From: a virus
Strand: one strand, 5' to 3'
DNA length: 32,971 nucleotides
UHGV virus genome: UHGV-0159523
This document shows positions 22,922 to 28,543 of this stretch, piece by piece; position 1 is the stretch's first letter; the number at the start of each line of letters is the position of its first letter. The notes beneath the pieces were generated by a model that saw nothing but the letters and a program-made list of their open reading frames with translations, did not search any database and was not told where the DNA came from. Both the position numbers and the translations under genes were made by a program.

Positions 22922-23244
22922 ACTTTCAGGCCCCTCTCATGTAACCAGTGGGTTGCACGCAGCCTTGCGTTTTCCTCACCGGCAAGCAGTGAGCGGATAA
23001 TCCCGACCGCCTCGCTGTCGTCGTCCTTCACCGCGGTATGAAGCGTGATGCCCCGGGCCACGCCACGCTTTATCGTGATGACGCCTTTTTTCTCCAGTGC
23101 GCGAAGATGCTCCACCGCTGCATTCACTGAACGGTATCCCAGCATGGTTGCCACCTCCTGATTGGTTGGCGGGAAGCCACGTTCTTTCTGATAAGAAATC
23201 AGCATATCCAGCACCTGCTGCTGACACTGAGTTAACGTCGTCAT
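22918..23244 (-). CDS. LexA N-terminal DNA-binding domain paralog lacking the S24 peptidase domain, 108 aa
   Basis: MTTLTQCQQQVLDMLISYQKERGFPPTNQEVATMLGYRSVNAAVEHLRALEKKGVI aligns colinearly with the E. coli LexA N-terminus as I recall it; no Ser/Lys dyad region; TAATG coupling to upstream gene. Confidence 0.65.
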   Translation of the reverse strand: MTTLTQCQQQVLDMLISYQKERGFPPTNQEVATMLGYRSVNAAVEHLRALEKKGVITIKRGVARGITLHTAVKDDDSEAVGIIRSLLAGEENARLRATHWLHERGLKV

Positions 23245-23738
23245 TAAGCCCCCACGTAATTCCCTGACAGATACCATTCATCACCCGATACAGCGCGCTT
23301 GCTGCTTTTCCGTAAGCACCGCTCTCGACGCGCCAGAAAGTTGTTTCGTTCTGGCTGGGAGTGACTTTCACGGAATGCCGCCATCCACACCGTTGCAGCA
23401 CGACGGTATAAGCCCCTGGACTCCAGCTCTTCAGCCTGGCGGGTCAGGCACAAAATCACCCGGGGATCGTTAGTGCCGACATAGAAATTGCGCACAGGTC
23501 TGGTTTCACGAACAGATTGTGGTTCCGGCTCCTGCGCTCTCTCAGTCAGGCGCGGGAAATGTCTGCGTGTATCTCCTTCACAACGGTGAGCCACACGCCC
23601 ACTCTGACGTAACTTGCTTGCTGACTGCAGAACGCGCTGCCGTGAGTAACCAGCAAAAGCATCTGCAATGTCTCCGGAAGTACAGCCCGGATGGGCTTCA
23701 ATGAATTTCTGAACGTCATTCAAAAGACTCATGATCAC
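23244..23738 (-). CDS. Hypothetical early protein with PerC-like C-terminal motif, 164 aa
   Basis: ORF track; C-terminal LYRRAATVWMAAFRESH...RRERC resembles the PerC-family pattern; assignment tentative. Confidence 0.4.
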   Translation of the reverse strand: MIMSLLNDVQKFIEAHPGCTSGDIADAFAGYSRQRVLQSASKLRQSGRVAHRCEGDTRRHFPRLTERAQEPEPQSVRETRPVRNFYVGTNDPRVILCLTRQAEELESRGLYRRAATVWMAAFRESHSQPERNNFLARRERCLRKSSKRAVSGDEWYLSGNYVGA

Positions 23739-24676
23739 CCCCTGAATCCTGCCGGGATCTGGCTGTAGTCCACGTTGCCGTAACTGGCTTTGAAGTACGG
23801 GTCTTCACGTTTTTCTGTGTGCGTGCTGACGGACGGCGATAAGCGCAGGGAAAGCTCATCCCATTTTTCCCGCAACTTCGACGGGCTGAGCACGTTACGG
23901 CACCAGAACGGATCGCGGCTGACGCGGCTGTACATCTCGCAGATTTGTTTGTGAGTACGACCATCCTGCACACACATCAGGCGAATTTCGTTTGCCCATG
24001 CTGTCCAGTTCGGTTCTTTGGGACGAACCACCTCGCCGTCACATTCGGCGGCCTGCTCGTACAGGGCAATGATTTTTTTCCAGAGCCACTGTGCGCAGGT
24101 CAAATCATCCTGCGTTCCCCACTGGCGCTTTTTAGGGCTGAATACAACCGCATCAGGATGGCGAGTTAAAAAATCCTGTTCAGCCGTCTGCGTGTCCGGT
24201 TGCGAAGCGTCCGGACGAGAAGGTTTTTTATCTGACGGATCATGTTTTGATTTTACTGACGGATCCCCGCCAGATTCTGACGGGTGAAAACCCGCTTTTT
24301 TGCCAGATTTCGACGCATCAAATTTTGACGGGTCAGATTTTGATGCGTCAGATTTTGACGGGTCAGAATCTGACAGTTGAGAAAATGCCGCTGCCTGAAG
24401 CTTCGCAACGTTAAGCTGATAAACATTCGACGCATTGCGGTTACCCTGGCGACGCGCCTTACGCGTTAACCAGCCTTCTGCTTCCAGCCGTGCGATAGCC
24501 GTTCTGACGGTACTCATCCCCGCGCCAATCTGGCGGGCAATGGTTTCAATTGATGGCCAGCACACACCTTCGTCATTACTGAAATCAGCCAAGCGGGCCA
24601 TAATTGCCACGCTGGATAATTTCATGCCTGACGCTGCGCAACCATCCCATACATAGCCGGTTAATTTAGTGCTCAT
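23735..24676 (-). CDS. Replication initiator, O-like (N-terminal wHTH, repeat linker, C-terminal domain), 313 aa
   Basis: N-terminal HTH (SIETIARQIGAGMSTVRTAIARLEAEGWL); internal peptide repeats SKSDASKSDPSKFDASKSG encoded by a DNA iteron array; SD AGAGG before ATG. Confidence 0.65.
   Translation of the reverse strand: MSTKLTGYVWDGCAASGMKLSSVAIMARLADFSNDEGVCWPSIETIARQIGAGMSTVRTAIARLEAEGWLTRKARRQGNRNASNVYQLNVAKLQAAAFSQLSDSDPSKSDASKSDPSKFDASKSGKKAGFHPSESGGDPSVKSKHDPSDKKPSRPDASQPDTQTAEQDFLTRHPDAVVFSPKKRQWGTQDDLTCAQWLWKKIIALYEQAAECDGEVVRPKEPNWTAWANEIRLMCVQDGRTHKQICEMYSRVSRDPFWCRNVLSPSKLREKWDELSLRLSPSVSTHTEKREDPYFKASYGNVDYSQIPAGFRG
24226..24379. repeat. Iteron array (putative origin of replication) inside the O-like gene
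   Basis: About eight copies of a 15-bp repeat (consensus agattttgacgggtc); four perfectly tandem between 24320 and 24379. Confidence 0.6.
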
Positions 24677-24685
24677 GACCGACCT

Positions 24686-25024
24686 CTATTTCCCTGAATT
24701 TACGACGAAACTGTTCGAGCGGGCTGAAGCACTCATGCTCATAGCCTTCACGGAGGTAGATAACCCGTTGTGTTTCCGGCTCCCAACGAATGACTCTGAC
24801 GGGCACTCCGTAGTGATCTTTGAACCAGCGGTTAACTTGTCGCAAAGGACTGTCTCCTTCTGCCGGTTGAAATCACCCACAGCCCACTCTGCAAAGCTGT
24901 GGGTTACAATTTCCCTGTCACCTGGTACATTTACTGCATAGCAATACTCCACCTTCGCTTTTCCACCCGGTACAGGAAGCGCAATCAGTTGCGAGCGACG
25001 GTAGTGTGTTGTTAAACTGTTCAT
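24686..25024 (-). CDS. Hypothetical early protein, 112 aa, translationally coupled to the upstream gene
   Basis: ATGA stop/start overlap at 25021-25024; the SD of the downstream O-like gene lies in its 3' end. Confidence 0.4.
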
Positions 25025-25896: not shown

Positions 25897-25934
25897 GCTA
25901 CTTAAAGTAGCGAATTGCAACTACTTAAAATAGA
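25897..25934. promoter_or_regulatory. OR-like operators: two copies of a 15-bp palindrome (gctacttaaagtagc and actacttaaaataga)
   Basis: First copy is a perfect odd-length palindrome; second is a near copy 23 bp away centre to centre; both lie in the 71-bp gap between divergent cro-like and cI starts. Confidence 0.55.
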
Positions 25935-25935
25935 A

Positions 25936-26676
25936 ATGACGAGCGTATGTGATGTGAGTAATCTTCTACCTATGGTAGAAGAACAGAAGTATCCAGATTT
26001 CGCCAAGAGACTAAACGAGTTAATGACAAACAAGGGAATTTCTGTCACCCAACTCAAAAGTCTTGTTGGCGTTACATATGAAATGGCGCGGCGATACACA
26101 ATCGGCGCAGCGAAGCCTCGTGCCTCTGTCATGAATAAACTTGCGTTGGCTCTGGGGGTATCGGCTTCATATTTAGAATATGGTGTTGGCGAGAGAGAAG
26201 GATGTAAGGAAATGGCAAGCATCCCCAATCCAACAAAACCCGACGTATACAGGATAGAAGTTTTAGATCTTAGCGTTAGCGCAGGACCTGGAACCTATAT
26301 GCTTTCAGACTATGTTGATGTGCTCTACGCCATTGAGTTCACAACAGAACATGCCCGTTCTCTTTTCGGTAACCGTTCTCAGGATGATATTAAGGTTATG
26401 ACTGTAAATGGCGATAGTATGTCCCCTACTCTCGTTTCCGGAGATCGACTGTTTGTCGACATTTCTGTTCGTCACTTCCAGACTGATGGAATTTACTCTT
26501 TCGTTTACGGTAAGACTTTTCATGTTAAACGTCTTCAAATGCAAGGTGACAAGCTAGCCGTTCTTTCGGATAACCCTGCCTATGAGAAATGGTACATCGA
26601 TGAAAAATCGCAGGATCAGCTTTATGTAATGGGCAAGGCGTTGATTCATGAGTCAATAAAATACAATCGGTTATAG
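25936..26676 (+). CDS. CI-like prophage repressor with C-terminal S24 (LexA-like) peptidase domain
   Basis: N-terminal HTH (FAKRLNELMTNKGISVTQLKSLVGVTYEMARRY); C-terminal VNGDSMSPTL and FHVKRL Ser/Lys dyad; ATG at 25936 may be leaderless, TTG at 25915 is the track start. Confidence 0.85.
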   Translation: MTSVCDVSNLLPMVEEQKYPDFAKRLNELMTNKGISVTQLKSLVGVTYEMARRYTIGAAKPRASVMNKLALALGVSASYLEYGVGEREGCKEMASIPNPTKPDVYRIEVLDLSVSAGPGTYMLSDYVDVLYAIEFTTEHARSLFGNRSQDDIKVMTVNGDSMSPTLVSGDRLFVDISVRHFQTDGIYSFVYGKTFHVKRLQMQGDKLAVLSDNPAYEKWYIDEKSQDQLYVMGKALIHESIKYNRL

Positions 26677-28505: not shown

Positions 28506-28543
28506 GGCACCGGGAGGCACCCGGCACCCGGCACCCGGCACCA
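28506..28543. repeat. Tandem heptamer repeat GGCACC(C/G/A), five copies
   Basis: Read directly: ggcaccg gga ggcaccc ggcaccc ggcaccc ggcacca; within a GC-rich region lacking a convincing gene. Confidence 0.7.

What the first reader, a model, noticed from the sequence alone, without database searches (positions are those of the whole stretch)
24226..24379. Iteron array inside the O-like replication gene, mirrored as a peptide repeat linker
Seen in sequence: about eight 15-bp repeats (agattttgacgggtc-like), four of them perfectly tandem, lie within the coding sequence and encode the repeated SKSDA/SKSDP/SKFDA linker. Established knowledge: lambdoid origins lie inside the O gene as iterons bound by the O N-terminal domain. 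This marks the likely ori and the replication specificity of this prophage.
Basis: partly seen in the sequence, partly recalled or inferred. Interest (0 to 1): 0.4.

Follow-up and report, generated by a model that had tools for sequence, protein, structure and literature searches.

The report
Replication-origin repeats inside prophage initiator gene
The short DNA repeats in the middle of this prophage's replication-initiator gene are very probably the protein's own binding sites at the phage replication origin, the arrangement long known from phage lambda, so this is a well-supported but ordinary finding.

Summary
Five head-to-tail 15-bp units (24303-24378), one more full site (24270-24280) and two degenerate copies lie in the minus-strand initiator gene 23735-24676 and encode its DPSKS/DASKS linker.

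Each unit carries an 11-bp palindrome, TCARAWTYTGA. All five matches in the 33-kb window fall within 104 bp.

Comparison with relatives shows selection on the DNA, not the peptide:
- Serine codons in the linker are 89% TCA/TCT, against 31% elsewhere in these genes.
- Codon identity at conserved residues is 85% in the adjacent block, against 41% in the DNA-binding domain.
- One relative carries a copy of the motif in another reading frame.
- The motif follows the N-terminal winged-helix domain through three different C-terminal domains. A sister N-domain type has a different 15-bp repeat.
- Other initiators that share this C-domain, including phi80 gp15 with its annotated binding sites, each have their own linker repeats. 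Several of those repeats have periods of 22-23 bp.

A GATC-containing AT-rich block conserved across relatives (24224-24265) follows the repeats and is the candidate unwinding site.

The gene is O-like in architecture and in its C-domain, but its DNA-binding domain is HTH_36, not the lambda O family. No helicase-loader gene follows it. Origin activity itself is untested. This is a new member of a known kind.

The parts
23735..24676 (-). Replication initiator gene (313 aa), O-like in position and architecture. It is 98.9% identical in DNA to Shigella phage SfIV gp41. E. coli K-12 CPS-53 holds an N-terminally truncated copy.
   Evidence: ORF list. phrog_391 'replication initiation O-like', E 6.5e-136. 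SfIV match. K-12 copy.
24380..24676 (-). N-terminal winged-helix DNA-binding domain (aa 1-99), the presumed iteron reader
   Evidence: Pfam HTH_36, E 4.3e-11, aa 23-70. AlphaFold2 model has helices and a two-strand wing at pLDDT about 64-89. Foldseek gives only weak MarR/ArsR-type winged-helix matches, best E 3e-3.
24303..24378 (.). Five head-to-tail 15-bp units. Each holds the palindrome TCARAWTYTGA at 24363-73, 24348-58, 24333-43, 24318-28 and, degenerate, 24303-13. They encode S102-G125 of the linker.
24281..24302 (.). 22-bp spacer with an A6 tract and a T4 tract (coding strand GGC AAA AAA GCG GGT TTT CAC). On the + strand it reads as a small terminator-like hairpin.
   Evidence: Sequence. 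Hairpin scan. Function unknown.
24270..24280 (.). Sixth, AT-block-proximal palindromic site (CCAGATTCTGA on the + strand). Its equivalent is kept in every type-A relative scanned, including alleles that have lost the tandem array.
24224..24265 (.). AT-rich block with two GATCCGTCAG copies 24 bp apart (two Dam sites). It encodes DPSVKSKHDPSDKK. It overlaps the lowest-GC stretch of the gene and its flanks (GC 0.30) and is conserved as DNA in both type-A and type-B initiator genes. Candidate unwinding element.
   Evidence: GC profile. GATCCGTCAG scan. Codon identity 85% vs 41%. Present in all 20 type-A and type-B genes.
23837..24181 (-). C-terminal helical domain (aa 166-280), homologous to the C-domain of phi80 gp15. 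Presumed replisome-recruitment domain.
   Evidence: BLASTP 36% identity, E 4e-25. AF2 helices at pLDDT about 65-88. Found in 80 loci joined to at least 5 unrelated N-domains.
23735..23782 (-). C-terminal tail ...NVDYSQIPAGFRG, with P308, G310, F311 and R312 invariant. Among relatives this tail type goes with the absence of a lambda-P-like partner gene.

Best explanation
The repeats are the iterons of a lambda-style replication origin that lies inside the initiator's own gene.

Proposed mechanism:
1. The N-terminal winged-helix domain of the 313-aa initiator binds the 11-bp palindromes TCARAWTYTGA, probably as a dimer because the site is palindromic. There are five at 15-bp spacing and a sixth 33 bp further on.
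2. The resulting nucleoprotein complex destabilises the adjacent AT-rich, GATC-bearing block (24224-24265).
3. The C-terminal domain and tail then bring in the host helicase. No phage helicase-loader gene sits beside this gene.

Because the period is 15 bp, a multiple of three, and the array sits in a disordered inter-domain linker, the DNA repeat reads out as a pentapeptide repeat. That peptide repeat is a by-product rather than the selected feature.

Shown here: the repeats, their clustering, DNA-level conservation, covariation with the N-domain, and position relative to the domains and the AT block. Inferred: binding, unwinding site, helicase recruitment and origin activity.
For: 1. Clustering far above chance.

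2. DNA-level selection. In 14 type-A genes from Escherichia, Citrobacter, Klebsiella, Pantoea, Providencia, Yersinia and others, 186 of 209 linker Ser codons are TCA or TCT, against 98 of 317 elsewhere (Fisher 1.8e-42). Amino acids change while the DNA motif stays: TCT/TTT/TGT/TAT give S/F/C/Y, and AAA/GAA/GAT/CAA/AAT give K/E/D/Q/N. At identical residues, codons are identical in 128 of 151 cases in the proximal-site plus AT block, against 299 of 732 in the N-domain (p 3e-24). The phiP27 record (NC_003356) has one copy in a different frame, encoding LQNLD.

3. Covariation. Phages phiNP, LLS and YeP2 carry the type-A N-domain, the same motif and the same AT block, but a different C-domain (Phg_2220_C). 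phiP27 carries them with a third C-domain. The sister type-B N-domain has a different 15-bp repeat (TTGACCCC/GGGGTCAA). The type-A motif scores 0 in 6 type-B genes, and the type-B motif scores 0 in 13 of 14 type-A genes.

4. Generality. Initiators that share this C-domain but have other N-domains each carry their own linker repeats, with periods of 12, 21, 22, 23 or 24 bp. Periods of 22-23 bp cannot be peptide repeats. phi80 gp15 has four annotated gp15-binding sites in the same position.

5. Anatomy. The linker, aa 103-164, has pLDDT below 50. The GC minimum (0.30) lies just promoter-distal to the repeats, the same polarity as in lambda (lambda layout from PMC7466680).

6. Repeat-poor alleles still keep one or two sites abutting the AT block. 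This parallels the published lambda minimum of two iterons plus the AT-rich region (PMC7466680, citing Dodson 1986 and Wickner and McKenney 1987).
Against: - There is no experiment on binding or origin activity for this family, and none was found in the searchable literature.
- The AT-rich block is only about 40 bp, and the window contains no DnaA box.
- No lambda-P, DnaC-like or helicase gene lies next to the initiator, so the helicase-loading step is unexplained.
- Half-site centres are only 6 bp apart within a palindrome, or 9 bp across the spacer, so the binding geometry is unclear.
- The codon statistics pool related sequences and recently duplicated units, so the p-values overstate independence.
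- Alleles with only 1-2 sites are widespread. P0032 occurs in 151 blocks of the collection. Most of the tandem array is therefore dispensable, at least for prophage persistence.
Confidence: 0.8

Rival explanations
1. The repeat is only a slippage-prone, low-complexity peptide linker (Ser/Lys/Asp-rich). It is selected, if at all, for flexibility, and its DNA has no binding role.
For: The array lies in a predicted disordered linker. Copy number varies in steps of 15 bp among close relatives, from 1-2 to about 11 units. The period is a multiple of three.
Against: Synonymous positions are frozen while amino acids vary. One relative has an out-of-frame copy of the same DNA motif. The motif is a DNA palindrome. 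In type B, inverted copies of one DNA motif encode unrelated peptides. Related initiators have 22-23 bp repeats in the same place.
Confidence: 0.07
2. The repeats are initiator-binding sites used for control, such as autoregulation, titration, handcuffing or exclusion of related phages. Strand opening and initiation happen elsewhere.
For: Iterons have such control roles in plasmids (PMC4980987, PMC5397158). Only 1-2 sites survive in some widespread alleles. The AT block is short.
Against: The repeats always abut the AT-richest, DNA-conserved block. The motif scan gave no other site in the window. Across lambdoid relatives the in-gene repeat cluster is the origin (PMC7466680, PMC8022706; phi80 annotation).
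Confidence: 0.08
3. The repeats are bound by a different protein, either a host factor or a neighbouring phage regulator such as the PerC-family protein encoded just downstream.
For: A winged-helix/PerC-family gene directly follows the initiator gene in the window and in several relatives.
Against: phiNP, LLS, YeP2 and phiP27 keep the motif with different upstream and downstream genes. The only constant partner of the motif is the type-A N-domain.
Confidence: 0.04

Closest known systems
Phage lambda origin (ori-lambda) inside gene O
   Same: The origin lies within the initiator gene of the early right operon, between the DNA-binding domain and the recruitment domain. It has several direct repeats with internal dyad symmetry, followed promoter-distally by an AT-rich tract. 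Repeat number varies among relatives: 4 in lambda and 6 in Stx phages (PMC7466680). From my own knowledge, the classical lambda ori- mutations are small in-frame deletions that leave O active in trans.
   Different: The DNA-binding domain here is HTH_36, not Phage_rep_O. The sites are 11-13 bp at 15-bp spacing, not about 19 bp at about 20-24 bp. They are in frame, so they give a clean pentapeptide repeat. No P gene follows.
Phage phi80 gene 15 and its origin
   Same: The C-terminal domain is homologous (36% identity, E 4e-25). Four annotated gp15-binding repeats lie in the inter-domain linker, in frame (21 bp), and are followed by an AT-rich stretch containing a GATC.
   Different: The phi80 N-domain is Phage_rep_O. 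Its repeat sequence, TTCCCGAAAACGG, is unrelated. phi80 has a P-like partner, gp14, and a different C-terminal tail.
P22 gene 18 and phage L gene 18 origins
   Same: Distantly related or unrelated initiators each carry their own repeats inside the coding region. Phage L has six 11-bp repeats (PMC8022706).
   Different: The initiator families differ, and those phages encode their own DnaB-type helicase, gp12.
Iteron plasmids (pSC101 RepA, F RepE, R6K pi, RK2 TrfA)
   Same: A winged-helix initiator binds tandem iterons next to an AT-rich unwinding element and relies on the host helicase (PMC4980987).
   Different: No Rep_3-type double winged-helix domain was detected. The iterons here are inside the gene, not beside it. 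No DnaA box is present.

Membership tests
Lambdoid in-gene iteron origin (lambda / phi80 / P22 type) | The initiator gene lies in the early right operon, downstream of the cI-cro-cII region | tested here: met
   Order on the minus strand is repressor (25915-26676, + strand), cro-like, CP76/cII-like, a small ORF, then the initiator.
Lambdoid in-gene iteron origin (lambda / phi80 / P22 type) | Three or more direct repeats inside the initiator coding sequence, between the N- and C-domains | tested here: met
   Six full sites at 24270-24378 fall within aa 102-136, inside or at the start of the low-confidence linker, aa 103-164.
Lambdoid in-gene iteron origin (lambda / phi80 / P22 type) | Repeats covary with the initiator's DNA-binding domain and not with its C-domain | tested here: met
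   Natural domain swaps in phiNP, LLS, YeP2 and phiP27. Type A and type B motifs are mutually exclusive.
Lambdoid in-gene iteron origin (lambda / phi80 / P22 type) | An AT-rich tract adjoins the repeats on the promoter-distal side | tested here: met
   GC is 0.30 at 24220-24259, the minimum of the profiled stretch 23500-24899. The tract is short, about 40 bp.
Lambdoid in-gene iteron origin (lambda / phi80 / P22 type) | The initiator binds the repeats, and the fragment supports initiator-dependent replication | not testable with these tools
   Needs EMSA or footprinting and an origin-cloning assay.
Lambda O protein family (Pfam Phage_rep_O, PF04492) | The N-terminal domain matches PF04492 | tested here: not met
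   No PF04492 hit; HTH_36 is found instead. phi80 gp15 and L073 do match PF04492.
Lambda O protein family (Pfam Phage_rep_O, PF04492) | A lambda-P-like partner gene lies immediately downstream | tested here: not met
   A PerC-family gene follows. No gp14/P-like ORF lies within 2.5 kb downstream.
phi80 gp15-type initiators (shared C-terminal domain) | C-domain homology to gp15 residues about 176-275 | tested here: met
   BLASTP E 4e-25, 36% identity over 112 aligned columns.
Iteron-plasmid Rep proteins (Rep_3 type) | Rep_3 / double winged-helix initiator fold | tested here: not met
   Pfam gives no Rep_3 hit. The only replication-protein hits, DnaD_N and RP-C, fall below their curated cut-offs. 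The model shows one winged helix. Fold matches are generic MarR/ArsR types.

The most novel reading that the evidence does not exclude
The origin module here may be a portable cassette made of a DNA-binding domain, its in-frame iterons and a shared Dam-methylatable AT block. It recombines exactly at the AT block with at least three different C-domains and with separate C-terminal tails.

Two further readings are not excluded:
- The conserved GATC pair, together with the Dam methylase gene that follows the module in many relatives, may put origin firing under methylation or SeqA control.
- The IPxGFRG tail may replace a lambda-P-type loader by recruiting the host helicase machinery directly. 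That would explain a one-gene replication module present in about 39% of complete E. coli genomes.
Probability: 0.2. Interest if true: 0.55.

Novelty: new member of a known kind. Interest (0 to 1): 0.3.

Why it matters
It locates the probable origin and replication specificity of a very common prophage lineage. The SfIV/SfII-type element is found in 2104 of 5426 complete E. coli genomes, and K-12 CPS-53 holds a remnant.

It also gives a concrete motif, TCARAWTYTGA, to test. It is a clean example of one DNA stretch serving as both binding-site array and protein linker.

Practical uses:
- predicting replication incompatibility or exclusion between co-resident prophages;
- annotating HTH_36 'helix-turn-helix domain-containing proteins' as initiators;
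- designing origin-cloning experiments.

The principle itself has been textbook since lambda and phi80.

Tried and rejected
- Fold search of the AF2 model against the PDB gave only generic winged-helix regulators (best E 3e-3). It does not link the protein to any specific initiator structure.
- NCBIfam gave nothing useful.
- Literature searches for this motif or for an origin in SfIV, SfII or SfV found no description. The SfV genome paper is not held.
- A DnaA-box scan found none, so I dropped a DnaA-assisted, plasmid-like model as a positive claim.
- The position-weight matrix of the units was anchored on the motif itself and is circular. I do not use it as evidence. I rely on the Ser-codon test, the codon-identity test, the out-of-frame copy and the covariation.
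- The 30-bp super-period seen by TRF (alternating Pro and Ala codons) is not kept in relatives such as LLS, so I treat 15 bp as the unit.
- The 'repeats, then AT minimum' order does not hold strictly in types C and E, where the GC minimum can precede the repeats. I claim that order only for types A and B and for a few others.
- The resemblance of the GATC block to the oriC 13-mers is loose, about 7 of 11 specified positions by eye. I do not claim it.

Full report
**What is there**

The window is an SfIV/SfII-type lambdoid prophage. The gene at 23735-24676 on the minus strand is 98.9% identical in DNA to Shigella phage SfIV gp41, and 14 phage records cover it in full. It encodes 313 aa. The N-terminus matches Pfam HTH_36 (E 4.3e-11), and the whole protein matches phrog_391 'replication initiation O-like' (E 6.5e-136). 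It follows a repressor / cro-like / cII-like (CP76) block and is followed by a PerC-family gene, a LexA-DNA-binding-domain gene and RusA.

Tandem Repeats Finder reports 24304-24367, period 15, 4.3 copies, 81% matches. The repeat finder shows five copies at 15-bp spacing plus dispersed copies. Read on the coding strand, the units are GAC CCG TCA AAA TCT and variants of it. They encode LSDS-DPSKS-DASKS-DPSKF-DASKS. The one correction is that the units are head-to-tail but not identical.

**The motif and chance**

Each unit contains an 11-bp palindrome, TCARAWTYTGA. Scans of either strand hit the same places one base apart. With up to one mismatch it occurs five times in the 33-kb window, all within 24270-24373. 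The 13-mer GTCAGATTTTGAC with up to two mismatches gives 7 hits there and 1 elsewhere, against 1.0 expected. I count six full sites: five at 15-bp spacing (24303-24378) and one at 24270-24280. Downstream in the gene's direction lie two GATCCGTCAG copies 24 bp apart (24232-24241 and 24256-24265). They sit in the lowest-GC 40 bp of the gene and its flanks (GC 0.30).

**DNA signal or peptide signal?**

I collected relatives from species genomes (80 loci) and from isolated phages. The evidence below shows selection on the DNA, not the peptide.

1. *Codon choice.* In 14 genes with the same N-domain type ('type A'; Escherichia, Citrobacter, Klebsiella, Pantoea, Providencia, Yersinia and others) the linker keeps TCA-RAW-TNT-G while the encoded residues change. 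S, F, C and Y alternate at TNT; K, E, D, Q and N alternate at RAW. Linker serine codons are TCA or TCT in 186 of 209 cases, against 98 of 317 in the rest of the genes (Fisher 1.8e-42).
2. *Synonymous sites.* At residues identical to the window protein, the codon is also identical in 128 of 151 cases within the block FHPSESGGDPSVKSKHDPS, which covers the proximal site and the GATC/AT block. The figure is 299 of 732 in the N-domain (p 3e-24). These tests pool related sequences, so the p-values are generous, but the effect is large.
3. *Reading frame.* The phiP27 record (NC_003356) carries one copy of TCAGAATCTGG in a different frame, where it encodes LQNLD.

**Covariation**

Phages phiNP, LLS and YeP2 combine the type-A N-domain, the same motif and the same GATC/AT block with a different C-domain (Phg_2220_C). 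phiP27 combines them with a third C-domain and is followed by DnaC-like and DnaB-like genes.

A sister N-domain type ('type B') has a different 15-bp repeat built from TTGACCCC and its inverse GGGGTCAA. Its two orientations encode unrelated peptides, IDPP and VEGL/VEGS. The type-A motif count is 1-10 per type-A gene and 0 in six type-B genes. The type-B motif count is 4-15 per type-B gene and 0 in 13 of 14 type-A genes. Both types share the GATCCG...GATCC block.

So the tandem repeats track the specificity of the DNA-binding domain, while the AT block is common to both types. The recombination joint lies just after the AT block.

**Generality**

The C-terminal domain (aa about 166-280) is homologous to that of phi80 gp15 (36% identity, E 4e-25). 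In the phi80 record, four gp15-binding sites are annotated in the same inter-domain position. They have a 21-bp period, are in frame, and are followed by an AT-rich stretch with a GATC.

The same C-domain is joined to at least five unrelated N-domains, and each has its own repeat family in the linker:
- 23 bp in L021 and L015;
- 22 bp in L025;
- 21/24 bp in L024 and mEp460;
- 21 bp in L042;
- 12 bp in L073.

Periods of 22-23 bp cannot be peptide repeats. The general rule is therefore a DNA repeat array placed in a tolerant linker, and the window's 15-bp period happens to be in frame.

The AlphaFold2 model agrees. It shows a winged helix at aa 1-99, pLDDT below 50 for aa 103-164, and a helical C-domain. 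The fold search gave only generic winged-helix regulators.

**Copy number**

Protein relatives differ in steps of five residues, from about ten units (P0047) down to almost none (P0015-17, P0032, P0069). The window's 301-bp region occurs in 2104 of 5426 complete E. coli genomes, mostly at identical length. Occasional +15 and +45 bp alleles occur. K-12 CPS-53 keeps an N-terminally truncated copy.

Repeat-poor alleles sit in prophages with intact-looking early regions. They retain exactly one or two palindromic sites directly abutting the GATC/AT block. No relative examined lacks sites altogether. This mirrors published lambda data, where two iterons plus the AT-rich region suffice for unwinding and in vitro replication, and where Stx phages carry six iterons against lambda's four (PMC7466680). 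The full array is, however, probably not essential.

**Mechanism and limits**

The most likely mechanism follows the lambda model:
1. The winged-helix domain binds the palindromes.
2. The array organises a nucleoprotein complex.
3. The adjacent AT/GATC block opens.
4. The C-terminal part recruits the helicase.

Only the anatomy and the evolutionary signatures are shown here. Binding, opening and firing are inferred.

Open points:
- No DnaA box occurs in the window.
- No lambda-P, DnaC-like or helicase gene lies beside the initiator.
- The half-site geometry is ambiguous, at 6 bp or 9 bp centre to centre.

I found no published description of this motif or of an origin in SfIV, SfII or related phages in the searchable library. 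The SfIV paper only names a 'replication module', orf41-45.

**Classification**

The element works like a lambdoid in-gene iteron origin and meets the features of that kind that can be tested here. It is not a member of the lambda O protein family, because PF04492 is not matched. It also lacks the P partner. It shares its C-domain with phi80 gp15. I rate it a new member of a known kind, of modest interest.

**Side observations**

Among initiators with this C-domain, the last 12-16 residues sort with the partner gene.
- A W-x4-5-W-type tail goes with a phi80 gp14 / lambda-P-like ORF immediately downstream. Twelve loci show this. L009 and phi80 itself also have the ORF, with other tails.
- The ...IPxGFRG tail (the window and about 20 loci) and a third, longer tail go with none, apart from a short fragment in L036.
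- The GFRG/GFRS tail also ends initiators with other C-domains: phiNP, LLS and mEp460.
- Many relatives carry a Dam methylase just after the module, which fits the conserved GATC pair. SfIV, and this window between the initiator gene and RusA, lack it.

Noticed in passing
window 23735-23782 (tail of the initiator); loci L002-L091: The C-terminal tail of initiators that share this C-domain correlates with the neighbouring gene. A W-x4-5-W-type tail goes with a phi80 gp14 / lambda-P-like ORF directly downstream in twelve loci; L009 and phi80 also have the ORF, with other tails. The ...IPxGFRG tail (the window and about 20 loci) and a third, longer tail go with none, apart from a short fragment in L036. 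The GFRG/GFRS tail also ends initiators with other C-domains (phiNP, LLS, mEp460). It may be a recruitment peptide that replaces a P-type loader.
   Followed up: partly
window 23244-23738 (minus strand): The gene immediately after the initiator is a 164-aa protein with a PerC domain (aa 100-153) and an N-terminal part that weakly matches a MarR-type winged-helix phage family. No helicase loader is present. Similar PerC-family or small helix-turn-helix-like ORFs follow the initiator in L002, L015, L006 and L035 and in K-12 (yfdN).
   Followed up: partly
window 24238-24241 and 24262-24265; loci L083, L084, L085, L087, L090, L091: Two GATC (Dam) sites 24 bp apart lie in the conserved AT block. 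Many relatives encode a Dam-type adenine methyltransferase within one or two genes after the initiator gene. No such gene lies between the initiator gene and RusA in this window, and SfIV also lacks it. This suggests possible methylation or SeqA control of the origin.
   Followed up: partly
window 24666-24845 and 24686-25024 (both minus strand): Two overlapping same-strand ORFs in different frames lie just upstream of the initiator gene. Both have phage family support: 59 aa, phrog_1343 (E 2e-34), called as DUF4222 in L090 and L091; and 112 aa, phrog_1170 (E 3e-70), annotated as SfIV gp40. This is either a real overlapping pair or an annotation conflict.
   Followed up: no
window 24281-24302 (+ strand): A terminator-like hairpin, CGGGTGAAAACCCG followed by CTTTTTTG, lies antisense to the initiator gene, between the tandem array and the proximal site. 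By eye, the A-tract and T-tract are kept in relatives more clearly than the stem.
   Followed up: no
L089 2556-3263 (E. coli K-12 MG1655, CPS-53 prophage): K-12 carries an N-terminally truncated pseudogene copy of this initiator gene, 98.9% identical over 264 bp and including the repeats. The PerC-family gene yfdN and a methyltransferase fragment, yfdM, follow it. The 301-bp region occurs in 2104 of 5426 complete E. coli genomes.
   Followed up: yes
L086 (phiP27, NC_003356) versus paper PMC7466680: The paper treats Stx phage 'P27' as having a lambda-like O protein and six lambda-type iterons. In the phiP27 record fetched here, the initiator (L17) is an HTH_36 protein with the TCARAWTYTGA-type repeats, followed by DnaC-like and DnaB-like genes. 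I did not resolve whether these are the same phage or whether the genome has a second replication region.
   Followed up: no
window 28516-28542: A perfect 7-bp tandem repeat, GGCACCC x 3.9, was reported by Tandem Repeats Finder. I did not examine it.
   Followed up: no
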